Shown: piece by piece, positions 19,516 to 40,757 of the stretch
How the letters are laid out: the number at the start of each line of letters is the position of its first letter
How positions within the stretch are numbered: the stretch's first letter is position 1
Assembly: GCA_050014695.1 (NCBI GenBank)
Contig: JBEKCV010000010.1
Coordinates: forward strand, 8,619-72,618
Source of the DNA: Thermodesulfovibrionales bacterium
GTDB lineage: Bacteria; Nitrospirota; Thermodesulfovibrionia; Thermodesulfovibrionales; UBA9159
Direction: 5' to 3'
DNA: 64,000 bases
Notes under the pieces: generated by a model
Database searches by the model: none
Seen by the model: the letters and a program-made list of their open reading frames with translations, nothing else
Told to the model about the DNA's origin: nothing
Program-made: the position numbers and the translations under genes

Positions 19516-20238
19516 GGTATCCTCCTTACTGGAAAAATTTAAGTTAGCATCGTTTTTGCTGCTCAAGAGCTATCCTTGCCTCACCTCCCTCTTCTCATTT
19601 TTTTCTTAGCCTCTGTGCTCTGGGATAAAAACCCTCTCATATTGTATGTTGCTGTCTCCACTTCTTCTATCCTCCCCTCAATTCGATACCTGACTATAGA
19701 AAAGCAAAGAATGTGCCACACGATGATCTATGGAAAGCCCTTTGATTTAATAGCCCTTGTCAGTTGTCCTGTCAGTTATAAGGAGTGAACCTAAGCAGAA
19801 ATTCGCATGCGGTGCGCGGAAAGTTTCAACTCATACAAGCCGGGACGGAGTCCCGTTGGCAAACGCTGGTTTTTTTTGTAGCTTCGGGAGACAAGAGCGA
19901 GGAGGGCGAGTAGATAAATCGATTTGACATACTCCCGTATCGCTCCTCTGCTCATTCTGTCACCCTCTTTCCTGACTCATCATCAGGGTTACATGGTAAA
20001 TGGCGCAATGATTCTCCATACGGTTACATTTTAGACCGCGCAATGCGGGGGGATTTTAAAATTATTTGGTTTTTTGGTATCATCATTAACGGGTTCGTAA
20101 AAAAAAGCTTCTCTGGTCCCTCTTTGCTAAAGAAAGGCATAGCGTGAACTTCTTCTTGTCCGGGAATTGCGTGGTGCGAAAGAGGAAGGAGACGGAGGGG
20201 AGTGTGACGGCACAAGAGACCCCGATCACGAATGAGAG

Positions 20239-20997
20239 GTGAACAGCATGCATAAAGTTGTTTTACTCAGACACGGAGAAAGCATATGGAACAGAGAAAA
20301 CCTTTTTACCGGGTGGACTGATGTTGATCTGTCCGAAAGAGGCATCGAGGAAGCCAGAGACGCGGGCCATGTGCTGAAACAACAGGGATATGTGTTTGAT
20401 GTCGCTTTCACTTCAGTTTTAAAACGCGCGATACGAACTCTTTGGATCGTGCTCGATGAGATGGATCTTATGTGGATTCCCGTCTACCGCGACTGGCGAC
20501 TGAATGAACGCCATTACGGTGCGCTGCAGGGTCTCGACAAAGCGGAGACTGCTCGGAAATTCGGAGAGCAGCAGGTGAAAATCTGGAGGCGGAGCTATGA
20601 CGTTCGTCCTCCGGCTCTGGAAGAAGACGATCCGCGGAATCCACGGAATGACCCTCGCTACAAGGAACTCACCGGCGGTCAGCTTCCGCTCTCGGAGTGT
20701 TTAAAGGATACGGTAGAGCGGTTTTTGCCCTGCTGGCATGATCGTATTGCGCCTGCGGTCAGGTCAGGGCAGCGGGTGCTCATCGCTGCCCACGGGAACA
20801 GTCTTCGTGCCCTCCTAAAATACCTAGATGGAATCTCTGAAGAGGAGATCGTGGGACTGAACATACCCACGGGAATGCCGCTGGTCTACGAGCTCGATGG
20901 CCAGTTGAAACCGATACGAAACTACTATCTCGGTGATCCTGACAAAGTAAAGAAGGCCATGGCGGCGGTGGCAAACCAGGGCAAGGTCAGGAAATAG
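20239..20997 (+). CDS. gpmA: 2,3-bisphosphoglycerate-dependent phosphoglycerate mutase
   Basis: '[27 protein letters not shown]', 'ERHYGALQG', '[10 protein letters not shown]'. Confidence 0.95.
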
Positions 20998-21031
20998 CTG
21001 ATTGATTTACTCTTGAGAGGCAGAAAACGTT

Positions 21032-22462
21032 GTGACTCTTCCCGCTAACAAAACCAAGCTTGTCTGCACCGTCGGACCAGCATCCGATTCGCCTGAGATC
21101 CTAAAACAGATGATAGGGGCCGGCATGAATGTGGCGCGGCTCAACTTCTCCCACGGCGATTTCAGATGGCACAAAAGGGTGATCGATGAAATACGTGCTG
21201 CGGCTATTTCAGCCGGACAGCGTGTCGCGATTATGGCCGATCTGCCTGGACCCAAAATGCGCATCGGTCAACTGGCCCAAGAGCCAGCGGAGTTGAGGCC
21301 GGGTGCCGTTTTCACCCTGACGACAGAAGGCATAGTCGGTGACAGCTCCAGGGTCTCTGTTACCTTTTCCGGTCTGCCGAAGGCCGTGAAGCCGGGAGAT
21401 ACGTTGTTTCTCAATGACGGCCTCATTCAACTCGAAGTGGAAGAAGTGCGGCGCAATGAAATTCGCTGCCGCGTTCTGGTCGGCGGTGAACTATGGTCAC
21501 GCAAAGGGATCAACGTGCCAGGCATCAATCTCGGTATCGGGGCATTTACTGACCGTGACCGCGAGTGCCTTAAATTTGCTCTGGACCAGGGGGTGGACGC
21601 AGTCAGCCAATCTTTTGTTGAGACCGCAGCAGACATTACCGCTGTCCGTGGAGCCAGTGCAGCTCTCGGCCACAATCCGTTTCTCATCGCGAAGATCGAA
21701 CGATCAAGGGCGCTTGACCATCTGCAGGACATCCTTGAGGTTGCCGACGGTCTCATGATCGCCCGCGGCGATCTGGGAGTCGAAATACCGATTGAGCAGA
21801 TAGCCGTTGTTCAAAAGCAGATAATGCGCCTTGCAAATCTGCGCGGGAAACCGGTGATCACGGCTACGCAGATGCTTGAGTCCATGACCGATAACCGACG
21901 CCCCACCCGTGCGGAGGCGACTGATGTCGCGAATGCCATCCTTGACGGCACAGACTGCGTCATGCTTTCCGGAGAGTCTGCAATGGGGAAGTATCCGGTG
22001 GAGGCAGTGGCTATGCTGGCCAAAATCGCAGCAGCAATCGAACCGCACCGTGTTGGCAATCAGGCGCGAGACGCAATGAAAGTCGTTGACCCCGAAAGCG
22101 CAATCAACATCACTGACGTAATAGCCTTCAGTGTTGAGGCAACGCTGGATCATATCTCTCCTGCTGCTGTCTTTGTCCCTACCCGCACCGGGACGACCGC
22201 GAGGAGTCTTTGCCGTTTCAGGCTGCCGGTCTGGATAACGGCTGTGAGTTCCCAAGAAACAACCTGCCAGCACCTCCAGTTCTCCTACGGGGTCTATCCG
22301 GTTCATGAGCCTGACCACCCCGAGGACTGGCGTCTCTATGCGAGAGAATGGCTTGCTTCGCACGGGGTGAGCGGGAAACTCGTCGTGCTGACCGAGGGGC
22401 CGTCTTCTCGGCACCCGGAGGCAAACAACCGCATGGAAATCATTGACCTCGAGCGAGCGTGA
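21032..22462 (+). CDS. pyk: pyruvate kinase
   Basis: 'KLVCTVGPAS', 'GMNVARLNFSHGD', 'IAKIE', 'MIARGDLGVEIP', 'VITATQMLESM', 'DGTDCVMLSGESA'. GTG start. Confidence 0.95.
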   Translation: MTLPANKTKLVCTVGPASDSPEILKQMIGAGMNVARLNFSHGDFRWHKRVIDEIRAAAISAGQRVAIMADLPGPKMRIGQLAQEPAELRPGAVFTLTTEGIVGDSSRVSVTFSGLPKAVKPGDTLFLNDGLIQLEVEEVRRNEIRCRVLVGGELWSRKGINVPGINLGIGAFTDRDRECLKFALDQGVDAVSQSFVETAADITAVRGASAALGHNPFLIAKIERSRALDHLQDILEVADGLMIARGDLGVEIPIEQIAVVQKQIMRLANLRGKPVITATQMLESMTDNRRPTRAEATDVANAILDGTDCVMLSGESAMGKYPVEAVAMLAKIAAAIEPHRVGNQARDAMKVVDPESAINITDVIAFSVEATLDHISPAAVFVPTRTGTTARSLCRFRLPVWITAVSSQETTCQHLQFSYGVYPVHEPDHPEDWRLYAREWLASHGVSGKLVVLTEGPSSRHPEANNRMEIIDLERA

Positions 22463-22725
22463 CGCTGCGCTGTCGTATCGGCATGTTTTTTCCTTCTCCA
22501 ATTGCATCTCCTTTTTTTCTCCTCATGATGCGGAATCTGTCTCTTGCAATAGCGCTCGTTGCTATGCTAGTATCCTTTTGACCACACTGCAACGAAAGGC
22601 GGAGGTTGCGCAGGCACTGAGAGAATGAGCATCGATAATATAAAGGGGACTGACCTCTGGGCTTGCTGCAAAGGTTCCCGCCAGACACCAGACACCAAGC
22701 AACAACATACAACCGCGTGTCATCC

Positions 22726-24591
22726 ATGCGCTGGATTTTCCGAGTCGCACCACTTCTAATCATCGCCGCGATCGTGGCGGCAATTGTTCACTGGGGTGGC
22801 CCAAGGAACGTCGTCTACATATTTCCGGGCGTTACCGGACCATCGCAACCTACTCCGCCGCCAGACGGGGCTGTTCCGACCCCCTGGAAGAACTTCGTCA
22901 AAGGGGGCCCCAGCCGGCTCGCTGTGCTCCTCACCGATGAGGATTCAGACTGGCTCGGCGTTGCTCATGGGTTAAAGTCTATAGGCGTTCCCTTTGTTAT
23001 AACCCGAGATGTCAGCAACGCCCTCACGCACCATGTGGTTCTCGTCTACCCAGTGATCTCGGGGAAGGTGTTACAGTCCGACGAGATGAAAGCTCTTGCC
23101 CGCTACCCCCAGCAGGGTGGCACCCTGATCGGGGTGAACGTTCTCGGAGGATTGAACGAGGTATTCGGCTTCGATGAGGCAGTGGCGACGCACAACCACT
23201 ATGAGATCCGGTTTGATACCACCCAGCGGATAGCATCAGCGTTTACGGATCCGAAGGAGTCGACAATCCGAATTGCAAGCCCGACCAATACTGCAGTAGC
23301 CGGTGGAGCCTATAGCTACTCGAATCCGCGCACTGCGCTGATAGCCCGCTACGAGGACGGTACCGCTGCGATAACGATGAAGTCCTATGGCACCGGGCGG
23401 GCTTACGCCATCGGCATGGACATCGGCCATCTGCTTCTCAAGGGTTACAACAACCGCGAGGAGGATATCGCCCGCTCCTACGTCAATGACTTCGAGCCGT
23501 CTCTGGATGTACTGCTTCGTCTGATCCGGAATATTTACCTCGACGGTGAGGATTCCGCTGTCACGCTTGGCACAGTTCCCTTCGGGAAGTCTCTCGCTGT
23601 GGTGCTCAGTCATGATATCGACTACACGAGGTCGATGGTAAACTCTCTTGTCTATGCGGAATTAGAAAAAAGCCAGGGCGTCCCCGCGACCTACTTTGTC
23701 CAGACCAAGTACGTACGCGACTGGAACGATGATGTTTTCTTCAACGCACGCGGCGTGGAGTTGATGAGGGCCCTTGACGCATCGGGCTTCGAAGTTGCAA
23801 GCCACTCGGTGTCCCATTCCCGCGTGTTCAGCAAGTTTCCTCTCGGCAAGGGTGACGAGACTTATCCCAGCTATGTGCCCTTTGTTAAAAGCGCTAAGGT
23901 GACCAAAGATGGAACGGTGCTGGGCGAATTGCGGGTGAGCAAGTTCCTGATCGAGCATTTCCTGCCAGGCCGCACCGTCGACACCTTCCGCCCCGGTCAC
24001 CTGCAGAATCCCTATTCCCTGCCAAGCGCGCTTGCGGCCATTGGCTATCGTTACAGTTCGTCGGTGACCGCGAACAATTCGCTCACCCATCTGCCATTTC
24101 GGCTGAACAACAACCGCGACACCCGCTCCGAATCAAAAGTGTACGAGTTCCCGCTCACCGTTGAGGACGAGGCGCCGCCGAAGATGATCCAGAGGCTCCC
24201 TGAGGCTGTTGATCTCGCGCGGAAGATCAGCAGCTATGGAGGGTCCTTCGTCGTTCTGATTCATCCCGACGTTCTGGCCGAAAAATTTGAATTTGAGCGC
24301 AAGTTCATCCCCGCGGTCAAAGACTTCTCGTGGTTCGGGTCCCTCCGGGATTTAGGCGGCTGGTGGAGTGCCAGGGATCAGATCGGAGTCGACGTCACCT
24401 CGTCTGGTAATGAGCGGATAGTTCTGCTGACAGTGCCTGAGCACATAAGCGGTCTTGCTCTTCAGGTTCCTCGCGGCTTTCGATTTGTTTCGGCCGATCC
24501 ATCTACAGTCCGGGTTTTAGCGAAGGAGGGAATCGTAGTCATCAAGGATGCGCTAGGCGATCTCACGCTGAAGTTTAGAGTGAAGAACTGA
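22726..24591 (+). CDS. membrane-anchored polysaccharide deacetylase (NodB/CE4)-family protein with a large N-terminal domain
   Basis: TM 'VAPLLIIAAIVAAIV', 'VVLSHDIDY' (Asp-Asp motif) and 'ASHSVSHS' (His-His motif). I prefer the start at the ATG ('MRWIF') over the track TTG at 22663. Confidence 0.7.
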   Translation: MRWIFRVAPLLIIAAIVAAIVHWGGPRNVVYIFPGVTGPSQPTPPPDGAVPTPWKNFVKGGPSRLAVLLTDEDSDWLGVAHGLKSIGVPFVITRDVSNALTHHVVLVYPVISGKVLQSDEMKALARYPQQGGTLIGVNVLGGLNEVFGFDEAVATHNHYEIRFDTTQRIASAFTDPKESTIRIASPTNTAVAGGAYSYSNPRTALIARYEDGTAAITMKSYGTGRAYAIGMDIGHLLLKGYNNREEDIARSYVNDFEPSLDVLLRLIRNIYLDGEDSAVTLGTVPFGKSLAVVLSHDIDYTRSMVNSLVYAELEKSQGVPATYFVQTKYVRDWNDDVFFNARGVELMRALDASGFEVASHSVSHSRVFSKFPLGKGDETYPSYVPFVKSAKVTKDGTVLGELRVSKFLIEHFLPGRTVDTFRPGHLQNPYSLPSALAAIGYRYSSSVTANNSLTHLPFRLNNNRDTRSESKVYEFPLTVEDEAPPKMIQRLPEAVDLARKISSYGGSFVVLIHPDVLAEKFEFERKFIPAVKDFSWFGSLRDLGGWWSARDQIGVDVTSSGNERIVLLTVPEHISGLALQVPRGFRFVSADPSTVRVLAKEGIVVIKDALGDLTLKFRVKN

Positions 24592-25141
24592 TTTTCTCCG
24601 TGACCGTCACTTCGTGATGTCTTTGGATATTATTCCCTCGCCCTCGTCGCTGTCTGACCTACCGTAAAAATTGAGGCATATGACTTACAGTATGGAGGCT
24701 GCGCTCATAGGTGATTCTAAAAAAATCACCTATTTTAAGGGAGGGTGAATGGTCTCTTAGAGCGCTCTCCGAGAGAGCCGTCATGACAGGCCCTTGCTCG
24801 TTTTGAGCACTTGGAGTATGCTAAGAAGAAACCAGGTAATAATATTGTTATACGTTAATTAAGAAGAGCCAAATGCAAGCCGCAATTAAGTTCCATGGTT
24901 CTGATTTAGCCTGACGATTGTCCCCGTGGAAATATGCGACGGCGAAATATCTGGTGGGAATGTGGTATTTGATAATCTGATACCCGGTTCCATTGAAAAT
25001 GAATGGTCGGTCAATGCTTCAACTTTCAGCCATTCTGTCTAATCGGTTTTTATTCCCACTACGGAAGAAGAGTCGGAATACGTCCGCGAGATAGCTTTCC
25101 GCAAGGTTCTGGGGAATTAAAGGTCTATCACAAGTAACGGC

Positions 25142-26386
25142 ATGATTTCCTCTGTCGATCAAGAAGAACCGAAAGCGATCCTGCAGCACCGCCCGTTCGT
25201 CCTGTTCTGGTTCTCCCGAGTGGCGACCATGATCGCCTTCCAGATGCAGGCTGTTGCCGTGGGTTGGCAGATCTACGCCCTCACCGGCAGTGCATTGTAT
25301 CTCGGCCTCGTCGGCCTTGCCCAGTTCCTGCCCATGTTCCTGCTGACGCTCGCCGTGGGTCATGTTGCAGACCGCTACGACCGCCGCATCATTGCGCGAC
25401 TCTGTCAGATCGTTGAAGGCCTTGCCGCCTTCGCACTGGCCTGGGGGAGCGCCGCCGGCTGGCAGAGCAAGGAGACCATACTCGTCATCATGGTTATTGT
25501 CGGCGCCACACACGCATTCGAAGGGCCGACCATGCAGTCGCTCCTGCCAAGCCTGGTCACCGGCCCGCTCCTTCCGCGAGCACTTGCCTGGTCTGCGTCG
25601 GCAATGCAGACCGCAACCATTATCGGGCCGGCGCTCGGTGGTCTCCTGTACACTGTGAGCCCGACCGATGTCTATGCAGCAGCAGGGGGCCTGTTCCTGT
25701 CTGCAAGCGTATTGCTCGGTCTTATCCGCTCCGGCCGCGCTCCCGTTATCCGCGAACCTGCGAGCATTAAGTCGACGTTTGCCGGCATCGCCTTTATCCA
25801 TAGCCGTCCGGATGTCTTGGGCGCCATATCCCTCGACCTCTTTGCCGTTCTCCTGGGTGGCGCTACAGCCCTCTTGCCAATCTATGCGCGCGACATTCTG
25901 ATGACTGGACCGTGGGGGTTGGGCTTGCTCCGCTCGGCGCCTGCTGTGGGCGCCCTTGCTATGTCGCTTTTCCTGGCGCGCCGCCCGCTCAAGCGCCGCG
26001 TGGGCAGGACTATGTTCATTGCCGTGGCGATCTTCGGTCTAGCAACTATCGTGTTCGCTCTTTCGACATCCTTCCTCCTGTCGCTGGCCACCCTTGCCGT
26101 GCTCGGAGCCGCCGACGTGATCAGCGTCGTCATCAGGCATTCGCTGGTCCAGATCGAGACGCCTGATGAGATGCGGGGTCGGGTAAGCGCCGTCAACTCC
26201 CTGTTCATCGGAACATCGAACCAACTGGGAGAGTTCGAGTCAGGGATCACGGCAGCCTGGTTCGGCGCGGTTTTTGCCGTCCTGATCGGCGGCATCGGCA
26301 CAATCATTGTCGTTGCGCTCTGGATGCGATTTTTTCCGCAGCTGTTGCAGACCGATGCCTTGGATTCGAGGAAAGAATCGGGATGA
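25142..26386 (+). CDS. MFS transporter (EntS / MFS_3-like)
   Basis: About 12 hydrophobic segments, 'FVLFWFSRVATMIAFQMQAVAVGW', 'VADRYDRRII', 'GPALGGLL'. A hand-counted 60-nt line gives about 63% G+C. Confidence 0.85.
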   Translation: MISSVDQEEPKAILQHRPFVLFWFSRVATMIAFQMQAVAVGWQIYALTGSALYLGLVGLAQFLPMFLLTLAVGHVADRYDRRIIARLCQIVEGLAAFALAWGSAAGWQSKETILVIMVIVGATHAFEGPTMQSLLPSLVTGPLLPRALAWSASAMQTATIIGPALGGLLYTVSPTDVYAAAGGLFLSASVLLGLIRSGRAPVIREPASIKSTFAGIAFIHSRPDVLGAISLDLFAVLLGGATALLPIYARDILMTGPWGLGLLRSAPAVGALAMSLFLARRPLKRRVGRTMFIAVAIFGLATIVFALSTSFLLSLATLAVLGAADVISVVIRHSLVQIETPDEMRGRVSAVNSLFIGTSNQLGEFESGITAAWFGAVFAVLIGGIGTIIVVALWMRFFPQLLQTDALDSRKESG

Positions 26387-26756
26387 AGGCTATTCGTCCT
26401 GTCCCATATGCAGATGCTACATAAGAGGCGTTGTTACCGAACTATCATTGCTATCGGCGACCGCTGCTCGGCCTCCTTCTTTGCCATGCGGAACGTATTC
26501 AAGTACAACGAGTGATTGCCGGTTTTTCGTCAGTTCGGTAACCTTATCATGCGAAGGGTTTTACAGAATAAAAAAACGAGGTTAGTCACTGCGTATCATG
26601 ACTATTGGGATGGTAACCAGCAGCTCGATAGCACCCTCTTATATATTGATGAGTTCACAAATACCAAGAAAAACATACACAACTGAGTGCTGGCAAAGGG
26701 GCACGGACTTCAGGAAATACTTCTCACTCCCCTGTAGAGGCTCCGGATTGATTAAA

Positions 26757-26797
26757 GGAAGGCAGGGCATAGATGATATGCCCTGCCTTCCTTTTTT
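26757..26797. terminator. strong, probably bidirectional, rho-independent terminator
   Basis: Perfect 15-bp stem GGAAGGCAGGGCATA/TATGCCCTGCCTTCC with a 5-nt loop. TTTTTT follows on the plus strand and TTTAAT follows on the minus strand, downstream of tRNA-Leu. Confidence 0.6.
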
Positions 26798-26874: not shown

Positions 26875-26961
26875 TGGTGCCGAAGGCGGGATTTGAACCC
26901 GCACGGCCTTTCGACCACTAGACCCTGAACCTAGCGCGTCTGCCAGTTCCGCCACTTCGGC
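26875..26961 (-). tRNA. tRNA-Leu (anticodon CAG), class II with long variable arm, CCA encoded
   Basis: The reverse complement GCCGAAGTGGCGGAACTGGCAGACGCGCTAGGTTCAGGGTCTAGTGGTCGAAAGGCCGTGCGGGTTCAAATCCCGCCTTCGGCACCA folds as a cloverleaf with anticodon loop TTCAGGG. It is near-colinear with E. coli tRNA-Leu(CAG) as I recall it. Confidence 0.92.
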
Positions 26962-27031: not shown

Positions 27032-27802
27032 TCAGTTTCCTACAAGCTCGATGAGATCTTTGGCGTCTCTGTAACCCGAGAGTAACCTTCCGTCAGGCAT
27101 GACGAGGGCGGGTGTGCCTGAAATCCCGAGTTTCTCCGCTAGCTTGATGTTCTCGTCAATCACGGAAGTCTCACATGTTGGTTTAGGCAATTCTTTTTTC
27201 GCATAGGCGTCTTCGAGGAGCGCAAGTGATTTTTCGCACTCAATGGCCTTTGCCTTCTCATATGATCCCTTATGCATCGCAAGCGGATACAGCTTTATGT
27301 AGAAAGCGATATCTTTTCTCTGTTCAATGACCTTCTTCATCTCCTGATGAAGTTTTTCGCAGAATGGTCATTCAGGGTCGCTAAACACGATCACCTTATA
27401 TTTGGCATCTTTAGCCCCCATGACAAGGGCGTCATCAAGAGGAATCTTTGATGCGTCGACCTTATTGATTTGGTCGAACCTCTCTTTGGTGAGATTCTTT
27501 TTCTCGTTGATTGCGAAGATCGAACCCGATATGATGTGCGTCTTCGAAAAATCAATATAGGTCAGACCTTTTTTCCCTCCGGTTTCGATATCCACTTCCC
27601 ACATACTTTTCAAAGGACTTGCTGTAACCTCCAGGACCTGGATGTTTGGGTCCAACTTTTTCAGCAGTGCAGAGGCCTCTTCTTTGCTTAACGTATGGCA
27701 TTTTGAACAGTCCTGGCCTTTTTCGCTGAAGCCATGGGAATATGACACTGGCAGGAGAAAAAACGCCACTGCCACAAACAGAACAATTTTTCGCATGTTC
27801 AC
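27032..27802 (-). CDS. periplasmic DsbC/DsbG-like thiol:disulfide oxidoreductase, probable selenoprotein (in-frame UGA at 27368-27370 read as Sec, redox motif U-P-F-C)
   Basis: Two same-frame track ORFs are separated only by TGA. The joined sequence is 'KVIVFSDPE-U-PFCEKLHQEMKK', with U at the first Cys of the thioredoxin-fold CxxC. A signal peptide is present, and a hairpin lies 15 nt downstream of the UGA. Confidence 0.72.
27335..27352 (-). promoter_or_regulatory. candidate bacterial SECIS hairpin
   Basis: The minus strand reads CUUCAUC-AGGA-GAUGAAG: a perfect 7-bp stem with a G-containing 4-nt loop. The loop starts 22 nt after the UGA. Confidence 0.5.
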
Positions 27803-27898
27803 CTCCGAAATGTTTTCTCATACTACCATAAGCGGGGTGAAAGGAGCAAGAAAATATACCTATTCGCTCTCTGGTAAAATGAGGTATACTAACATCCT

Positions 27899-35710: not shown

Positions 35711-36172
35711 ATGAAAAAGATAATCATGATCTGCTTTGTATTCAGCATCTGCATATTCTTCGGTACGTCCCTCTTTGCGGGGAATGGTGCCAAAAACCCT
35801 GAGTTTGTGACCCTTGACAGCATAGCAGACAAGTATGAGTCAGTCATCTTCACGCATGCAAGGCACGCCACTCTGGCGGGGAATTGCGGGTCGTGCCATC
35901 ACCAGCACGCCGACAGTGGAACGCTTCCCTGTAAGGGATGCCATTCCCTTACGCCCGCTGATTTTAAAAAGTCGGTTACGCAGAGTTTCATGGCCTGCAA
36001 GAACTGCCACGCCGGCAATGACCGCGCGAATCCAGCGGTTCCGGGACTCAAGGTTGCCTACCATCAGATGTGCTTCCAATGCCACAAGGGGATGGGCAAC
36101 ATCGGTCTGGACCCGAAGGGCTGCACGGAGATATGCCATGCGAAGAAAGAACAGGTAATAAGCCAGAAGTGA
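35711..36172 (+). CDS. periplasmic class III (c3-type) multihaem cytochrome, 4 CxxCH plus one CX3CH
   Basis: Signal peptide, 'VIFTHARHA', then 'CGSCHH', 'CKGCH', 'CKNCH', 'CFQCH', 'CTEICH'. Confidence 0.85.
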   Translation: MKKIIMICFVFSICIFFGTSLFAGNGAKNPEFVTLDSIADKYESVIFTHARHATLAGNCGSCHHQHADSGTLPCKGCHSLTPADFKKSVTQSFMACKNCHAGNDRANPAVPGLKVAYHQMCFQCHKGMGNIGLDPKGCTEICHAKKEQVISQK

Positions 36173-36195
36173 CGAAGCCACGGAAAGGAGGAATC

Positions 36196-37209
36196 ATGGA
36201 CAACGAACACAGAACAGATAAAGAACACGAAGCCGTAAAAAACGGCGGTGGAAATTCCGACTGCAAGAAACGTCTTACCCTGACCAGGAGAGGTTTCTTA
36301 GGGACCGTGGCTTCGGTAGGGGGGGCAGCCCTCATCAGCAACGCGAAAGAGGCTTGCGGGTATAAGGAATTTGCCGGCTACCCTGACAGCTTCGGCTGCC
36401 TGACGGATTTTACCCGGTGCGTGGGATGTCGGAGCTGCGAAAAGGCCTGTAACGAGGCGAACAACCTTGAGAAGCCACAGGTCCCCTTTGACGATAAGTC
36501 TGTTTTTGAGGAAACAAGAAGACCGAATGCACATGCATATACGGTGGTCAATAGATATGAAAATCCGAAAGATAAGAGCAATCCTATCTACCGGAAAATG
36601 CAGTGCAACCACTGCAAAGAGCCAGGGTGCGCCACTGCATGCCCCATCCATGCCTATTCGAAGACTCCGGAAGGGGCGGTTTTTTACGATGAGAGTCTCT
36701 GTTTCGGCTGCAGATATTGTATGACGGCCTGCCCGTTTTATGTACCGTCCTTTGATTATTGGAGTGCCCTGGAGCCGAAAATCGTAAAATGCACTATGTG
36801 CCGCGACAGGATCAAGAAGGGCGGCATCACCGCCTGCGCAGAGGCCTGTCCTACGGGCGCTATCACCTTTGGCAAGAGGGAAGACCTGATCAAAGTGGCG
36901 AGGGAGAGGATCGGGAAAAACCCGGACAAGTATGTCGACCATATCTACGGGGAACATGAGGTCGGAGGGACGAACTGGATGTATGTCTCCGGAGTTCCCT
37001 TTGAGCAGCTCGGCTTTCCTTCGCACCTGCCGACAACACCACTCGTTGAACAGACAAAAGGCTTTCTCGCCGCGGTACCGGTCGTGCTGACCGTCTGGCC
37101 AGCGCTCTTCGGAATGTGCTATGCAGCCCTTCGTCACAGGAACGAGCAGGATAAACAGGATAAAGAGAAAGAAGCGAGTCAAGGAAAGGAGGAGATGAAA
37201 AATGGGTAA
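36196..37209 (+). CDS. Tat-exported 4x[4Fe-4S] ferredoxin-type subunit (NrfC/HybA/DmsB-like) with C-terminal TM anchor
   Basis: Tat motif 'TRRGFLGTV'; clusters 'CVGCRSCEKAC', 'CNHCKEPGCATACP', 'CFGCRYCMTACP', 'CTMCRDRI...CAEACP'. SD 'ggaaaggaggaatc'. Confidence 0.9.
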   Translation: MDNEHRTDKEHEAVKNGGGNSDCKKRLTLTRRGFLGTVASVGGAALISNAKEACGYKEFAGYPDSFGCLTDFTRCVGCRSCEKACNEANNLEKPQVPFDDKSVFEETRRPNAHAYTVVNRYENPKDKSNPIYRKMQCNHCKEPGCATACPIHAYSKTPEGAVFYDESLCFGCRYCMTACPFYVPSFDYWSALEPKIVKCTMCRDRIKKGGITACAEACPTGAITFGKREDLIKVARERIGKNPDKYVDHIYGEHEVGGTNWMYVSGVPFEQLGFPSHLPTTPLVEQTKGFLAAVPVVLTVWPALFGMCYAALRHRNEQDKQDKEKEASQGKEEMKNG

Positions 37210-38437
37210 CGGATATGCAGTGAAGAACGAAAACTTCAGATCTTGGTTCATGGATAAGTTACTCATGGGACTGAGTTGGCCGGAGTACTCGAGAAAACTC
37301 CTGACTCCTTTCAATGTGATCGCAGCGATCATCCTGTCCATCGGACTCCCCCTGATCGTCCTGCGGTTCGTCGATGGTCTCTATCTTGTCACCCATGCTT
37401 CAGACGATTACCCGTGGGGCTTGTACCTCGGGTGGGGACTTTTTGGAGGAGTTCCGCTGTCGGCAACGGGATTTGTGATGGCCACAGCCTATTACATCTT
37501 CGGGTTTAAAGGCTTTCGACCGATTGTGAGGCTTGCAGTCCTGACAGGATTCCTGGGCTATCTCTTTGCGGTCATTTATCTCCTCGTGGACCTCGGCAGA
37601 CCGTGGAGAATCTACTACCCCATGATTATCGGGTTCGGTACGGCCTCAGTGCTGTTTCTTGTGGCGTGGCATGTGGCAACATACCTGACGGTCCAACTTC
37701 TTGAATTCAGCCCCGCTATCTTAGAATGGCTTAAATCGAGAAGGGTCAGGAGATGGGCAACAATGATCACCATTGGCATGACCATTGCCGGTATCATCCT
37801 GTCCACGCTCCATCAGTCCGCCCTCGGCGCAATGTATTTGCTCGCGCCCGGGAAACTCCACCCGCTCTGGTTCTCATCGTATATCCCAACCTTCTTCCTG
37901 AGCTCGGCGGTCTATGCGGCTCTTGCCATGGTAATCGTCGTGAGCACCCTTGCCGTCCGTTTTCTCAGAGACAAGGCCGGCCCGACTTTTCTCGGAAGTA
38001 TAGACAGAATAACTCTCGGCCTCGGCAAGGGCGCCTGTATCGGCATGTACGTCTACTTTGTACTGAAGGTGATCGGGATAGCGCATGACGACAACTGGGG
38101 GCTCCTGAGCACTCCGTATGGCTACTGGTTCCTTGTGGAGATCCTCGGCTTTGTCCTGCTGCCCGCACTCATCTTCACGTTGGGAGTGAAGATGAGCAGT
38201 GTGAGGACGGTCCGCTTCGGTGCCTTCCTTGCCGTCATCGGGATTATCGTGAATCGCCTCAACGTATCGATCGTGGCGCTGAACTGGAATCTCCCGCATC
38301 ACCTCCATCACATCATTCCACCCTGGCGGGAAGTGGCCGTCGTCCTAAGCATCGCTACGATACACATTCTCATATTCCGTTGGATCCTGAACCGCATGCC
38401 CGTCATGAGGGAAGAACCGGGTTATGAGGATCACTAG
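37202..38437 (+). CDS. NrfD/PsrC-family integral membrane quinone-interacting subunit
   Basis: 411 aa with about 10 hydrophobic helices. It overlaps the FeS gene by 8 nt, which is the canonical FeS-NrfD pairing. Confidence 0.9.
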   Translation: MGNGYAVKNENFRSWFMDKLLMGLSWPEYSRKLLTPFNVIAAIILSIGLPLIVLRFVDGLYLVTHASDDYPWGLYLGWGLFGGVPLSATGFVMATAYYIFGFKGFRPIVRLAVLTGFLGYLFAVIYLLVDLGRPWRIYYPMIIGFGTASVLFLVAWHVATYLTVQLLEFSPAILEWLKSRRVRRWATMITIGMTIAGIILSTLHQSALGAMYLLAPGKLHPLWFSSYIPTFFLSSAVYAALAMVIVVSTLAVRFLRDKAGPTFLGSIDRITLGLGKGACIGMYVYFVLKVIGIAHDDNWGLLSTPYGYWFLVEILGFVLLPALIFTLGVKMSSVRTVRFGAFLAVIGIIVNRLNVSIVALNWNLPHHLHHIIPPWREVAVVLSIATIHILIFRWILNRMPVMREEPGYEDH

Positions 38438-38516
38438 ACGTGAGCTCTTGAAGGGATATAAGGGGGATACCTCGCTGCGGGGTGTCCCCCTCCGGGACAA
38501 CGGGGGGGGTGAGACA

Positions 38517-40007
38517 ATGAGGGCTCCTCAACGAAATACCTTTATGACGGAGGCGGTGAGCATAAAGGGGAGAAAGGACATAATTTACCTGGTGCTTTCT
38601 CTTTCGCTCATCTTTCTTATTCCGGCAGACTTTGCTTATGCAAAAGGGAACGGCCAGCAGGAAGCGGTTCAACAGTGTCTGAAGTGCCATGGGAAACGGG
38701 GCATCACAAAAAAATTCGAGAACGGTGAATCGGTAGCGGCCTATGTGGACAGCGAAAGCTTCAAGAATTCTGTTCACAAATCCCTGACCTGTTTCGATTG
38801 TCACCCCGATTTTTCCGGAGAGAACCATCCCGACAGGAGATTCCGGAGCGCGGAGCAGTTCAGAATAAAATCCTCGCGGGCATGCAGAAAGTGCCACACC
38901 GTTGAACAAATAAAAAGGGAATCCATTCACGCCACATTATTGAGGGAGGAAGATGAGGGCAGAGCACATCCCTGCACAAACTGTCATGGTTCCCACGCAA
39001 TAGTGCCGATAGGCGTCGAACGGATGACAAATGAAGAGCAATATTGCATGGAGTGTCATGCTCACGAGGTGAGCATGGAATGCAGAAATGGTGAAAGGGC
39101 GTTACTGAAAATGGACAGCACTGCGTTGAAGGCCTCTGTGCATAACAAGCTCGGGTGCTCGGACTGCCATTTCGGATTTTCCCCGTCTCATCACCCTCAG
39201 AGAAACTTCAGGAGCATCCGTGATTTTTCGATCGCCAATGCAGAGATGTGCCGACGCTGTCACTTCGATAAATATACGAAGGAGATGGAGAACGTCCATT
39301 ATGTGAAGCGCAGTCAGGGCAACCTCAGTACGCCGGTATGTACCGATTGCCACGGCTCTCACGCCGTGGTGAGTTTTGAGAAAGAGAGAACGGCGATAGC
39401 CTGGAGATGCCAGAAATGTCATCCGCAGGTATTTGCCCTGTATGCACAAAGCGTACACGGAAGAGGGCTTTTTGAAGAACAGAGCCAGGACGTCCCGGTC
39501 TGCACGGATTGCCATACGGCACACGATATCAAAGACCCGCTGACCCTGGAGTTCCGCGAGCACATACCGGAGAGGTGCAGCAACTGCCATGCAAATAAAG
39601 CCGTGATGGCGAAATATGGACTTTCGACGGATGTCGTAAAAACCTATTTGTCGAGCTTCCATGGGGTCACCTTGGCCTTTTACAGAAAGCAGAGGGAGGA
39701 GATGAGCAAGCCCGCCAGACAGATAGCCGTATGTACGGATTGCCACGGCACCCATAATATCATGAGCACCAGAGCCGCGAATCCGGCCGTCGTAAGAGCC
39801 AACCTCGTGAAGAGGTGCCAGCAGTGTCATGCGCAGGCAACTCGGAATTTTCCGGACGCATGGCTCTCTCACTACGAGCCGAGCCTGAAACAAGCCCCTC
39901 TCGTTTTCATGATCAACCTGCTCTATACGGTTTTCCTGCCTATTCTGGTGGTAGGGCTTATCCTCCAAATCCTCTTGCATGCCTGGCGTTATGCGGTCAA
40001 CAGATGA
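38517..40007 (+). CDS. 13-haem c-type cytochrome with doubled-CXXCH repeats and C-terminal TM anchor
   Basis: I counted 13 CxxCH motifs (CLKCH, CFDCH, CRKCH, CTNCH, CMECH, CSDCH, CRRCH, CTDCH, CQKCH, CTDCH, CSNCH, CTDCH, CQQCH). C-terminal TM 'LVFMINLLYTVFLPILVVGLIL'. Start uncertain (38424 or 38517). Confidence 0.85.
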   Translation: MRAPQRNTFMTEAVSIKGRKDIIYLVLSLSLIFLIPADFAYAKGNGQQEAVQQCLKCHGKRGITKKFENGESVAAYVDSESFKNSVHKSLTCFDCHPDFSGENHPDRRFRSAEQFRIKSSRACRKCHTVEQIKRESIHATLLREEDEGRAHPCTNCHGSHAIVPIGVERMTNEEQYCMECHAHEVSMECRNGERALLKMDSTALKASVHNKLGCSDCHFGFSPSHHPQRNFRSIRDFSIANAEMCRRCHFDKYTKEMENVHYVKRSQGNLSTPVCTDCHGSHAVVSFEKERTAIAWRCQKCHPQVFALYAQSVHGRGLFEEQSQDVPVCTDCHTAHDIKDPLTLEFREHIPERCSNCHANKAVMAKYGLSTDVVKTYLSSFHGVTLAFYRKQREEMSKPARQIAVCTDCHGTHNIMSTRAANPAVVRANLVKRCQQCHAQATRNFPDAWLSHYEPSLKQAPLVFMINLLYTVFLPILVVGLILQILLHAWRYAVNR

Positions 40008-40019
40008 AAGGAGACAACG

Positions 40020-40757
40020 ATGGAAGGTGACCAGATAAAAGAGGGGTACGTGAGGAGATTCAGCTTCTATCGAATAATCGAGCATTGGCTGCATGCCGTC
40101 ATTTTTGCGATCCTGGTTGTGACCGGCCTTTCCCAACGGTTCTATAGCCTTGATGTCTCGCAGCTGCTGGTGATGTATCTCGGCGGAATCGATTCCGTCA
40201 GGATGATCCACAGGGTCACCGGGTTGTTCCTAGCTTTCCTCCTGATCGAGCATGTCTTTGTTGCCTCATACGGCATTCTTTTCAGAAAATGGAAACCCTT
40301 GATCATGATCACCAAAAAGGATTTCAGCGACGCCATCGACAACCTGAAATACTATCTCAACATGAAAGACCATCAGGCATACTGCGACCGATACGGATAT
40401 AAACAAAAATTCGAATATTGGGGAATCCTTTCCGGCCTGCTCGTGATGATGGGAACAGGGGTCATCCTGTGGTTCCCTGCGACGGTCAGCCGATTCCTCC
40501 CCGGAGAACTCATCCCCGCGGCAAAAGTGATGCACTCAAATGAGGCATTCCTCATATTCCTCATCATAGCCCTTTGGCATATCTATAATGCGATATTCAA
40601 TCCGGAGATATTCCCCCTTGATACCAGTATACTTACCGGTTACATATCATGGGAACGGATGGTGCGTGAACACCCAGCTGAGCTCGCAAGGATTGAGGGT
40701 AAAACGCTCCAGGAGATTGTTCATCCGGAGCACCGCGAAAAGTTCAGACGCGATTAG
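40020..40757 (+). CDS. membrane dihaem cytochrome b (FdnI / Ni-hydrogenase b-type cytochrome family)
   Basis: 'RFSFYRIIEHWLHAVIFAILVVTG', 'HRVTG', 'MHSNEAFLIFLIIALWHIYNA'. Four TM segments with conserved His pairs. It starts 12 nt after the cytochrome c gene. Confidence 0.85.
   Translation: MEGDQIKEGYVRRFSFYRIIEHWLHAVIFAILVVTGLSQRFYSLDVSQLLVMYLGGIDSVRMIHRVTGLFLAFLLIEHVFVASYGILFRKWKPLIMITKKDFSDAIDNLKYYLNMKDHQAYCDRYGYKQKFEYWGILSGLLVMMGTGVILWFPATVSRFLPGELIPAAKVMHSNEAFLIFLIIALWHIYNAIFNPEIFPLDTSILTGYISWERMVREHPAELARIEGKTLQEIVHPEHREKFRRD

What the first reader, a model, noticed from the sequence alone, without database searches (positions are those of the whole stretch)
27032..27802. DsbC-like periplasmic oxidoreductase with in-frame UGA at the redox-active Cys position (U-P-F-C) plus a downstream hairpin: probable selenoprotein, split in the ORF track
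**The join.** Track ORFs 27368..27802 and 27032..27340 are in the same frame and are separated only by TGA at 27368-27370. Reading through gives '...KYKVIVFSDPE-[UGA]-PFCEKLHQEMKKVIEQ...'. This is the thioredoxin-fold active site of DsbC/DsbG-type proteins ('DP.CP.C..'), with the UGA exactly replacing the N-terminal, nucleophilic Cys. That is the classic Sec/Cys position in redox selenoproteins.

**The hairpin.** Fifteen nt after the UGA the mRNA can form CUUCAUC-AGGA-GAUGAAG, a 7-bp perfect stem with a G-containing loop. The loop begins 22 nt from the UGA, which fits the spacing generally described for bacterial SECIS elements. Sec-containing Dsb-like proteins have been reported in deltaproteobacterial selenoproteomes, so the family is plausible. 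Automated annotation would miss it or call a pseudogene.

**Extra oddity.** The mature N-terminus carries a CxxCH motif ('QDCSKCHTL'), which could be a haem c attachment site in this periplasmic protein.
Basis: partly seen in the sequence, partly recalled or inferred. Interest (0 to 1): 0.65.

Follow-up and report, generated by a model that had tools for sequence, protein, structure and literature searches.

The report
Selenocysteine-containing DsbC disulfide isomerase gene
What looks like a disulfide-isomerase gene broken by a stop codon is very probably one intact gene in which that UGA is read as selenocysteine, directed by a small RNA hairpin that more than 100 related species conserve; it belongs to a selenoprotein family that has already been predicted.

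Summary
The minus-strand gene 27032-27796 has a single in-frame TGA (27370-27368) at the first Cys of the DsbC active site (U-P-F-C). A perfect 7-bp hairpin lies 15 nt downstream (27352-27335).

About 116 of these are DsbC-like genes with TGA at this codon and an open frame downstream. Nearly all come from Nitrospirota/Thermodesulfovibrionales MAGs.

In 115 of 115 usable sequences all seven stem pairs form. Two pairs show compensatory U-A to C-G changes. Loop position 2 is always G. Synonymous sites are frozen only across the hairpin. In Cys-containing homologues the same codons vary freely, and only 2 of 117 pair fully.

The element meets all four published bacterial SECIS criteria. TGA is otherwise the commonest stop codon in the window, and it is also this gene's true stop.

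The gene is a new member of the predicted "thiol:disulfide interchange protein" selenoprotein family (PF13098, UxxC).

Two points are not verified. The Sec machinery (selA/B/C/D) is not in the window. The conserved N-terminal CxxCH has not been shown to bind haem.

The parts
27032..27796 (-). Complete selenoprotein gene: 254 codons plus a TGA stop. It encodes a DsbC-family periplasmic thiol:disulfide isomerase/reductase with Sec at residue 143.
   Evidence: Translation. Pfam DsbC_N (34.6 bits) and Thioredoxin_2 (74.3 bits). DsbC structures match at E = 5e-18. Full-length homologues reach up to 70% identity.
27802..27806 (-). Shine-Dalgarno-like GGAGG, 5 nt upstream of the ATG at 27796.
   Evidence: Read directly from the sequence.
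27731..27796 (-). Predicted Sec-type signal peptide (MRKIVLFVAVAFFLLPVSYSHG, cleavage before F23).
   Evidence: Inferred from the n/h/c-region pattern. The AF2 model of the orthologue shows an N-terminal helix followed by a disordered stretch.
27695..27709 (-). CxxCH motif (C30-S-K-C33-H34) in a flexible tail just after the signal peptide. Its role is unknown; a candidate haem c attachment site.
   Evidence: Present in 175 of 205 full-length family members. No co-varying ligand was found elsewhere in the protein. Model confidence is low in this stretch.
27488..27682 (-). DsbC N-terminal dimerisation domain (residues 39-103).
   Evidence: PF10411, E = 1.4e-8, above the gathering score. Foldseek alignments to DsbC cover 217-230 columns, close to the full length of the DsbC chains.
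27359..27370 (-). Active site U143-P-F-C146. The UGA (27370-27368) is the Sec codon.
   Evidence: Aligns with C-G-Y-C of Salmonella DsbC. Cys at this column in 145 homologues. TGA at this column in about 116 genes from other species.
27335..27352 (-). Bacterial SECIS hairpin: 5' arm 27352-27346, loop AGGA 27345-27342, 3' arm 27341-27335. It lies inside codons L-H-Q-E-M-K.
   Evidence: 100% pairing in 115 sequences, two pairs with compensatory changes and none broken. Synonymous sites are frozen only here. The structure is absent in Cys forms.
27047..27412 (-). Thioredoxin-fold catalytic domain (residues 129-250). It includes the invariant pair C187/C208 and the G-T-P (cis-Pro) loop.
   Evidence: PF13098. 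The alignment to DsbC matches IWCAK/ASCD and SGTPA. The invariant columns are listed.
27032..27034 (-). True stop codon, also TGA, 71 nt (start to start) upstream of tRNA-Leu.
   Evidence: TGA is the stop of 29 of 54 long ORFs in the window.

Best explanation
The gene at 27032-27796 (minus strand) encodes one 254-residue periplasmic DsbC-family thiol:disulfide isomerase/reductase. Its nucleophilic active-site residue is selenocysteine (U143-P-F-C146).

**Shown.** There is a single in-frame UGA at the CxxC N-terminal position. A 7-bp, 4-nt-loop hairpin sits 15 nt downstream and is conserved with covariation in more than 100 species. Cys-containing orthologues exist.

**Inferred, translation.** SelB carrying Sec-tRNA(Sec) binds the hairpin loop, in which the G at position 2 is invariant, while the ribosome has the UGA in its A site. 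Sec is inserted and translation runs on for 111 more codons to the real TGA stop. I saw no such hairpin after that stop: the motif occurs only once in the window.

**Inferred, function.** The precursor is exported through the Sec translocon and cleaved after SHG22. It dimerises through its N-terminal domain. The selenolate attacks wrong disulfides in periplasmic proteins, forming a Se-S intermediate. That intermediate is resolved by a substrate thiol (isomerisation) or by C146 (reduction). The enzyme is then re-reduced by a DsbD/CcdA-type membrane protein, which was not found among the window ORFs I scanned. Likely substrates in this multihaem-cytochrome-rich anaerobe are periplasmic proteins, possibly including apocytochromes.
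For: **Fold and active site.**
- Pfam finds DsbC_N and Thioredoxin_2.
- DsbC structures match at E = 5e-18, with UPFC aligned on CGYC. The second Cys pair and the GTP loop also align.
- The AF2 model of the 70%-identical orthologue (pLDDT 89.5) matches DsbC best, at E = 3e-15.

**Sec/Cys pair.**
- 145 full-length homologues have Cys at this column.
- One is a syntenic orthologue.

**Conservation of the TGA.**
- About 116 hits are true homologues, 44-70% identical to the window protein. Those not cut by a locus end have at least 108 open codons after the TGA.

**SECIS.**
- 115 of 115 sequences pair at all 7 positions.
- The compensatory changes are CAU/AUG to CAC/GUG (4 sequences) and CUU/AAG to CUC/GAG (2 sequences). 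Both also change the amino acid.
- No pair is broken, and the G at loop position 2 is invariant.
- Codons +5 to +12 have frozen synonymous sites (AAA 97/97, CTT 113/115, CAT 111/115, AAG 113/113 Lys codons). The flanking codons vary freely.
- In Cys forms the same positions vary freely, and only 2 of 117 pair fully. Among Cys forms with the peptide LH..MK, 2 of 20 use the Sec-form codons, against 83 of 83 Sec forms with LHQEMK.
- All four criteria of the published bacterial SECIS model are met (PMC13188914).

**No decay.**
- The part after the UGA is more conserved than the part before it (0.68-0.77 against 0.55-0.68 identity).
- TGA is the commonest ordinary stop in the window.
- The same TGA is present in all six contigs fetched, each from a different sample.

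**Literature.**
- Complete selABCD sets are reported for the selC*-carrying genomes, which include Thermodesulfovibrio (PMC5389517).
Against: - No tRNA-Sec, selA, selB or selD was found in the 64-kb window or in any fetched locus. The rest of the genome could not be reached, so the machinery is inferred from the lineage.
- No Rfam family matched the hairpin at gathering threshold.
- There are no protein-level data (75Se labelling or mass spectrometry) for any member of this family. The reviews list it only as "predicted with high confidence".
- All Sec-form relatives found are MAGs, not isolates.
- The family's reference sequence (WP_011366075.1) could not be compared directly.
Confidence: 0.88

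Rival explanations
1. The UGA is decoded, always or under selenium limitation, as cysteine. The agent would be a tRNA(Sec)-like tRNA(Cys) (selC*), delivered by SelB or a SelB paralogue to the same hairpin. The product would then be an ordinary CxxC DsbC.
For: - selC* tRNA(Cys) genes are reported in Thermodesulfovibrio, in contigs probably from Nitrospirae, and in delta-proteobacteria. A UCA-anticodon form suppressed UGA as Cys in E. coli (PMC5389517).
- Cys is evidently tolerated at this site. Sec and Cys forms are interleaved on the family tree, with at least 18 switches.
Against: - No selC* or any other tRNA apart from tRNA-Leu is in the window.
- In that paper the opal anticodon is tied to genomes with cysS*, which are Desulfobacterales, not to Nitrospirae.
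- The same paper finds complete Sec machinery in all selC*-carrying genomes.
- If Cys were the intended residue, a TGA-to-TGC/TGT change would be simpler. Keeping a TGA plus an 18-nt frozen element in more than 100 species points to an advantage of Sec.
Confidence: 0.06
2. The gene is a pseudogene or a genuinely split gene. The TGA terminates translation and the downstream 102-codon ORF is dead or is translated on its own.
For: - Gene callers split the gene into a 142-aa and a 102-aa ORF in every assembly.
- No Sec machinery is visible in the window.
Against: - The same single-codon "lesion" recurs in about 116 genes that are 44-70% identical to this one, and I saw no other disruption.
- The downstream half is better conserved than the upstream half.
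- Starting at M153 would remove the UxxC active site, including C146.
- The hairpin shows covariation and frozen synonymous sites that a dead gene would not keep.
Confidence: 0.02
3. The hairpin serves another purpose, such as ribosome pausing, mRNA stability or SECIS-independent near-cognate read-through. It would not be a SelB-binding SECIS.
For: - The stem is short (7 bp, -8 kcal/mol).
- No bacterial SECIS family matched in Rfam.
- Bacterial SECIS elements share little sequence, so the assignment rests on a loose consensus.
Against: - Intact hairpins are nearly confined to TGA-bearing genes: 115 of 115 TGA forms, against 2 of 117 Cys forms in the control. The only other case seen is the closest Cys orthologue, which looks like a relic.
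- Spacing, loop size and the invariant loop G match the SelB-binding model.
Confidence: 0.04

Closest known systems
"Thiol:disulfide interchange protein" selenoprotein family. It is listed in PMC13188914 and PMC9312934 as PF13098, UxxC, example WP_011366075.1, and is reported in Geobacter metallireducens, G. uraniumreducens and Syntrophus aciditrophicus (PMC1794560).
   Same: - The Pfam domain is the same (Thioredoxin_2 is the top hit).
- The UxxC motif has Sec at the N-terminal position.
- Cys homologues exist.
- The host is an anaerobe.
- Sec forms closely related to the window gene (57-63% identity) occur in Thermodesulfobacteriota, Syntrophaceae and "delta proteobacterium" MAGs with the identical SECIS.
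   Different: - The host lineage is Nitrospirota/Thermodesulfovibrionales, not delta-proteobacteria.
- I could not compare directly with the reference sequence.
- In the papers read here I found no mention, for that family, of the DsbC_N domain, the CxxCH tail or the near-invariant 18-nt SECIS.
E. coli / Salmonella DsbC (PDB 1eej, 4i5q)
   Same: - The two-domain architecture is shared: an N-terminal dimerisation domain plus a thioredoxin fold.
- The active site is in the same position.
- The second Cys pair, the GTP cis-Pro loop and the KLH after the motif are all present.
   Different: - Identity is only 26-28%.
- The NCBIfam DsbC equivalog score is 81 bits, against a cut-off of 215.
- Sec replaces Cys98.
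- The dipeptide is P-F rather than G-Y.
- There is an extra N-terminal CxxCH tail.
Bacterial SECIS of E. coli fdhF, and the bSECISearch consensus model (described in PMC13188914)
   Same: - It is a stem-loop inside the coding sequence just after the UGA.
- The small apical loop follows the N-G-[G/U]-N pattern.
- The spacing of 22 nt is within the 16-37 nt range.
- The MFE is at or below -7.5 kcal/mol.
   Different: - It is shorter and simpler than the fdhF element as I recall it. This rests on my own knowledge and was not compared here.
- I saw no bulged base in the stem.
- No lower stem appeared in the RNAalifold consensus.
- Its sequence is almost invariant across two phyla.
"DsbG-like" (NF041057 / PF13462) and "DsbA-like" (PF01323) selenoproteins
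   Same: These are periplasmic-type thioredoxin-fold proteins with UxxC.
   Different: - NF041057 was not matched at E <= 0.01.
- The PF13462 and PF01323 hits are weaker, partial overlaps of the same domain.
- DsbA lacks the dimerisation domain.

Membership tests
Thiol:disulfide interchange protein selenoprotein family (PF13098, UxxC) | Thioredoxin_2 (PF13098) domain | tested here: met
   74.3 bits against a cut-off of 27, residues 129-250.
Thiol:disulfide interchange protein selenoprotein family (PF13098, UxxC) | In-frame TGA at the first position of the CxxC redox motif (UxxC) | tested here: met
   U143-P-F-C146 aligns with the CGYC of DsbC and with the Cys column of 145 homologues.
Thiol:disulfide interchange protein selenoprotein family (PF13098, UxxC) | Cys-containing homologues and other Sec-containing homologues at the same column (a Sec/Cys pair) | tested here: met
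   About 116 TGA forms. Cys forms include a syntenic orthologue.
Thiol:disulfide interchange protein selenoprotein family (PF13098, UxxC) | Direct homology to the family's reference sequence WP_011366075.1 (Geobacter metallireducens) | not tested
   The sequence cannot be retrieved with these tools. A second homologue search with a delta-proteobacterial Sec form returned no named Geobacter protein among the best 120.
Bacterial selenoprotein gene (general) | SECIS stem-loop meeting the bSECIS model: 3-9 nt loop, 4-16 bp stem, G in the first two loop positions, 16-37 nt from the UGA, MFE <= -7.5 kcal/mol | tested here: met
   4-nt loop AGGA, 7-bp stem, 22-nt spacing. MFE is -8.0 kcal/mol and the consensus is -8.16 kcal/mol. 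The criteria are taken from PMC13188914.
Bacterial selenoprotein gene (general) | Evolutionary support for the RNA structure (covariation, constrained synonymous sites) | tested here: met
   100% of cells paired, 2 pairs with double changes, none broken. Codons are frozen only in Sec forms.
Bacterial selenoprotein gene (general) | selA, selB, selC (tRNA-Sec) and selD present in the same genome | not testable with these tools
   None is in the window or in any fetched locus (ARAGORN; tblastn with E. coli SelA/B/D). The only lineage-level support is from the literature.
Bacterial selenoprotein gene (general) | Selenium shown in the protein (75Se labelling or mass spectrometry) | not testable with these tools
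   This needs an experiment.
DsbC family (disulfide isomerase) | N-terminal dimerisation domain (PF10411) | tested here: met
   34.6 bits against a cut-off of 25, residues 39-103. Foldseek alignments to DsbC cover 217-230 columns, nearly the whole DsbC chain.
DsbC family (disulfide isomerase) | Thioredoxin fold with a CxxC-type site, a cis-Pro loop and a second Cys pair | tested here: met
   The alignment to 4ilf/4i5q matches SGTPA, IWCAK/IECEK and ASCD/PTCE. C187, C208 and P229 are invariant.
DsbC family (disulfide isomerase) | Equivalence to E. coli DsbC (NCBIfam NF008129 equivalog cut-off) | tested here: not met
   81.2 bits against a cut-off of 215. The protein is therefore a DsbC-family member and not an equivalog of E. 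coli DsbC.
c-type cytochrome (haem c protein) | CxxCH motif in an exported protein | tested here: met
   C30-S-K-C-H34 follows a predicted signal peptide and is conserved in 175 of 205 members.
c-type cytochrome (haem c protein) | Covalently bound haem, a recognisable cytochrome fold or a distal ligand | tested here: inconclusive
   No cytochrome Pfam domain was found. The tail has low model confidence. No co-varying His or Met was found. Haem attachment needs an experiment.

The most novel reading that the evidence does not exclude
The conserved N-terminal CxxCH tail may really carry a covalently bound c-type haem. The protein would then be a periplasmic disulfide isomerase with both a selenocysteine and a haem. 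The haem tail could pass electrons between the periplasmic cytochrome pool and the Se-S active site, in place of or alongside a DsbD-type reductant. Alternatively it could act as a built-in mimic of the apocytochrome substrate. A weaker version is facultative Sec/Cys decoding of the same UGA by a selC*-type tRNA.
Probability: 0.25. Interest if true: 0.7.

Novelty: new member of a known kind. Interest (0 to 1): 0.4.

Why it matters
**Annotation.** This gene and at least 116 relatives carry the same in-frame TGA. The window gene is split into two ORFs (142 and 102 aa) in every assembly looked up. Recognising the Sec codon restores a complete periplasmic redox enzyme. It also marks these uncultured Nitrospirota as selenium users.

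**Biology.**
- It extends a predicted Dsb-type selenoprotein family, previously reported from delta-proteobacteria, to a second phylum.
- It provides an unusually clean natural SECIS dataset. The 18-nt element is almost invariant, shows compensatory changes that override the amino-acid sequence, and survives as a relic in a Cys orthologue.
- It shows repeated Sec/Cys exchange, which is useful for studying why selenium is kept at a disulfide-exchange site.

**Open question.** The conserved CxxCH tail has no explanation yet and is cheap to test.

Tried and rejected
- **Rfam.** The scan of the window at gathering thresholds found only tRNA-Leu and no SECIS family.
- **tRNA-Sec.** ARAGORN on the window and all loci found none.
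- **Sec machinery.** tblastn with E. coli SelA, SelB and SelD against the window and about 1.6 Mb of fetched loci gave no hit.
- **Other split genes.** A scan of the window for other same-frame ORF pairs split only by TGA found no other candidate with a redox-type motif or an obvious single-gene reading. The other 22 pairs were judged from their peptide context only.
- **Source genome.** Exact-protein look-ups at the gene and near the window end returned only metagenome contigs of up to about 54 kb. No named assembly was found, so the machinery could not be searched for.
- **Structure of the window protein.** The 70%-identical Cys orthologue was modelled instead.
- **Reference family member.** A second homologue search, meant to reach the Geobacter reference protein, returned only Nitrospirota, Dissulfurispiraceae or unnamed proteins.
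- **Operon partners.** Clustering neighbours of 116 Sec-form loci found no conserved partner and no DsbD/CcdA. The best family was present in only 12 loci.
- **Lower stem.** The MFE fold of the window sequence pairs the UGA itself with downstream bases. RNAalifold did not support this across species.
- **Terminator-like hit.** The plus-strand site at 27335-27352 is simply the reverse complement of the SECIS hairpin plus the A-run.
- **Literature on CxxCH in DsbC.** Two searches found nothing relevant.
Full report
**1. The observation**

On the minus strand, 27802-27032 is one reading frame with a single internal stop. That stop is the TGA at 27370-27368, in the context ...KYKVIVFSDPE-TGA-PFCEKLHQEMKK.... 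The two ORFs of the track share this frame, and only the TGA and nine sense codons lie between them. The probable start is the ATG at 27796, which has a GGAGG 5 nt upstream (read). This gives 254 codons plus a TGA stop at 27034-27032.

Fifteen nt after the internal TGA lies CUUCAUC-AGGA-GAUGAAG (27352-27335), a perfect 7-bp stem with a 4-nt loop. With three flanking nt on each side it folds at -8.0 kcal/mol, and 0 of 200 shuffles fold as well. TGA followed by this hairpin occurs once in the window, against 0.00 expected.

The TGA is not a sequencing error. The same 142-aa N-terminal ORF is on 17 contigs read. The six fetched come from six samples of three data sources and are identical over the whole 765-nt gene.

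**2. What the protein is**

With Cys written at the TGA, Pfam finds DsbC_N (residues 39-103) and Thioredoxin_2 (129-250), both above their gathering scores. The best solved relatives are the DsbC proteins of Salmonella, Yersinia and E. coli, down to E = 5e-18. In that alignment U-P-F-C lies on C-G-Y-C. The second Cys pair (C187/C208) and the SGTPA cis-Pro loop are matched as well.

The NCBIfam DsbC equivalog scores 81 bits against a cut-off of 215. The protein is therefore a DsbC-family member and not an equivalog of E. coli DsbC. The model NF041057, which the 2026 review cites for the "DsbG-like" selenoprotein, does not match.

An AlphaFold model of the closest Cys orthologue (P0001, 70% identical) has pLDDT 89.5. 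Foldseek ranks DsbC structures first, with alignments of 217-230 columns.

The N-terminus (MRKIVLFVAVAFFLLPVSYSHG|F) has the pattern of a Sec-type signal peptide. This is an inference.

**3. Homologues**

The protein database holds about 950 homologues at E <= 1e-10. The best 120 are about 254-residue single proteins from Nitrospirota/Thermodesulfovibrionales, named "DsbC family protein" where a name is given. In the 152 sequences retrieved, all 145 in which the motif was found have Cys at the TGA column.

P0001 lies in the same gene neighbourhood as the window gene: MtnA-like IF-2B, polyprenyl synthase, AMMECR1 and PatA_N. The two halves are therefore one gene.

**4. Is the TGA conserved elsewhere?**

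I scanned one genome for each of 185,579 species for TTY NNN GAY CCN GAN TGA CCN TWY TGY. This pattern stops before the hairpin. By my own estimate about ten matches were expected by chance.

About 116 hits are DsbC-like genes with the TGA at this codon. Those not cut by a locus end have at least 108 open codons downstream. Only three hits are chance matches or fragments. The genes are 44-70% identical to the window protein.

Nearly all come from Nitrospirota/Thermodesulfovibrionales MAGs, and about a dozen come from Thermodesulfobacteriota, Syntrophaceae or "delta proteobacterium" MAGs. Several genomes carry two such genes. A disruptive mutation would not recur at one codon, with no other damage, across this divergence.

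**5. The hairpin across species**

In 115 sequences (111 of them distinct) all seven stem pairs form in every sequence. Pair 3 changes from U-A to C-G in two sequences (CUU to CUC together with AAG to GAG). Pair 6 changes from U-A to C-G in four sequences (CAU to CAC together with AUG to GUG). In both cases the 3' change alters the amino acid (K to E, M to V). No sequence has a one-sided change.

RNAalifold predicts exactly this helix and nothing else, at -8.16 kcal/mol. The loop is N-G-N-N, with G invariant at position 2 and G at position 3 in 112 of 115 sequences.

Synonymous sites are frozen in codons +5 to +12: AAA 97/97, CTT 113/115, CAT 111/115, CNG, NNG, and AAG 113/113 Lys codons. The codons on either side use all their synonyms.

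**6. Control with Cys forms**

I scanned metagenomes for the same peptide with TGY in place of TGA and with K-L-H required but in any codon. In the 117 distinct Cys forms the codons vary freely:

| Residue | Codon counts |
|---|---|
| Leu | CTG 37, CTC 36, CTT 28 |
| His | CAT 72, CAC 45 |
| Glu | GAG 57, GAA 50 |
| Lys | AAG 55, AAA 42 |

Only 2 of 117 pair at all seven positions. Among Cys forms with the peptide LH..MK, 2 of 20 use CTTCAT..ATGAAG. All 83 Sec forms with LHQEMK use one identical 18-mer. The RNA constraint therefore goes with the TGA and not with the peptide.

**7. Fit to the known element**

The published bacterial SECIS model asks for four things: a 3-9 nt loop on a 4-16 bp stem, a G in the first two loop positions (mostly N-G-[G/U]-N), 16-37 nt between the UGA and the loop, and MFE <= -7.5 kcal/mol (PMC13188914). 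The window element has a 4-nt loop, a 7-bp stem, loop AGGA, 22-nt spacing and -8.0 kcal/mol, so all four are met.

**8. Alternatives**

TGA has not been reassigned. It ends 29 of 54 long ORFs in the window, and it ends this gene too.

The gene is not decaying. The part after the UGA is 68-77% identical to its nearest relatives, against 55-68% for the part before it.

One alternative cannot be excluded. tRNA(Sec)-like tRNA(Cys) genes (selC*) occur in Thermodesulfovibrio, in contigs probably from Nitrospirae, and in delta-proteobacteria. A UCA-anticodon form reads UGA as Cys in E. coli (PMC5389517). Cys is clearly tolerated at this site, so decoding could be facultative. The same paper reports complete selABCD sets in those genomes, which is the only lineage-level support for the machinery that I could find.

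In the window itself there is only tRNA-Leu(CAG), and no SelA, SelB or SelD homologue. None of the ORFs I scanned with Pfam is a Sec-pathway gene. The rest of the genome could not be reached.

**9. Comparison with what is known**

[quoted passage not shown] They list "DsbG-like" and "DsbA-like" as separate families. The 2006 survey places the family in Geobacter metallireducens, G. uraniumreducens and Syntrophus aciditrophicus.

The window gene shares the domain, the motif, the Sec/Cys pairing and the anaerobic setting. Close Sec-form relatives with the same SECIS occur in Syntrophaceae and Thermodesulfobacteriota MAGs. I therefore file it as a new member of that kind. One caveat applies: I could not align it with the reference protein.

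**10. Evolution**

On a rough NJ tree of 205 full-length sequences, Sec and Cys forms are interleaved. Parsimony needs at least 18 switches. The closest Cys orthologue has TGC but still carries the intact hairpin, CTTCATCAGGAGATGAAG. Only the preceding AAA has changed, to AAG. This looks like a relic SECIS left by a recent Sec-to-Cys replacement.

**11. The CxxCH motif**

C30-S-K-C-H34 lies eight residues after the predicted signal-peptide cleavage site. It is present in 175 of 205 full-length family members (63 of 89 Sec forms). It has decayed or been lost in several sublineages. It sits in a tail with low model confidence. No residue elsewhere in the protein co-varies with it.

The window also encodes a 527-residue multihaem cytochrome with FeS, NrfD and cytochrome b partners. 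Cytochrome c maturation is therefore presumably active in this organism. Haem attachment is plausible but untested. The literature searches found no precedent for a haem-bearing DsbC.

**12. Verdict**

This is an ordinary-looking but mis-split selenoprotein gene of a predicted family. Comparative support for its SECIS is very strong. Two things remain unverified: the Sec machinery of this particular genome and the role of the CxxCH tail.

Noticed in passing
window 27695-27709 (-): A CxxCH motif sits in a flexible tail just after the signal peptide. It is conserved in 175 of 205 family members but has decayed (C..GH, C..YH) or is absent in several sublineages. Some genomes with two Sec paralogues carry one with the motif and one without (for example L108 and L013).
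   Followed up: partly
L249:6001-6765 (GCA_023485285.1, Cys orthologue P0001): This syntenic orthologue has TGC in place of TGA but keeps the complete hairpin CTTCATCAGGAGATGAAG. It appears to be a relic SECIS left after a Sec-to-Cys replacement.
   Followed up: partly
loci L013+L108, L079+L114, L050+L102, L010+L122, L036+L104, L091+L095, L025+L061, L030+L057, L039+L069, L048+L053: In these cases two separate Sec-containing DsbC genes come from one MAG.
   Followed up: no
window 26875-26961 (-): tRNA-Leu(CAG) lies 70 nt downstream of the gene's stop codon. ARAGORN called 31 tRNA-Leu genes across the fetched loci and the window, so the adjacency may be conserved. I did not check their positions relative to the gene.
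   Followed up: partly
window 26754-26794: A perfect 18-bp hairpin flanked by T-runs lies between the MFS transporter gene (25142-26386, +) and tRNA-Leu (-). It is probably a bidirectional terminator.
   Followed up: no
window 36070-40757 (+): A membrane redox module is encoded here: a 4Fe-4S protein (Fer4_11), an NrfD-type membrane subunit, a 527-aa multihaem cytochrome c and a cytochrome b (Ni_hydr_CYTB). The two upstream ORFs have no Pfam match.
   Followed up: partly
L098 (Chloroflexota MAG), L124 (Bacteroidales MAG): Sec-DsbC genes with the same SECIS sit on short contigs binned into unrelated phyla. This could be mis-binning or horizontal transfer.
   Followed up: no
L049:4042-4068: In a Nitrospira-labelled MAG the motif and SECIS context are present, but only 14 codons are open upstream and 32 downstream. 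This may be a genuine pseudogene fragment of the family.
   Followed up: no
window 20001-26000: G+C content is higher here (0.54-0.56) than in the neighbouring sequence (0.45-0.49). The stretch includes the pyruvate kinase, polysaccharide deacetylase-like and MFS_3 genes.
   Followed up: no
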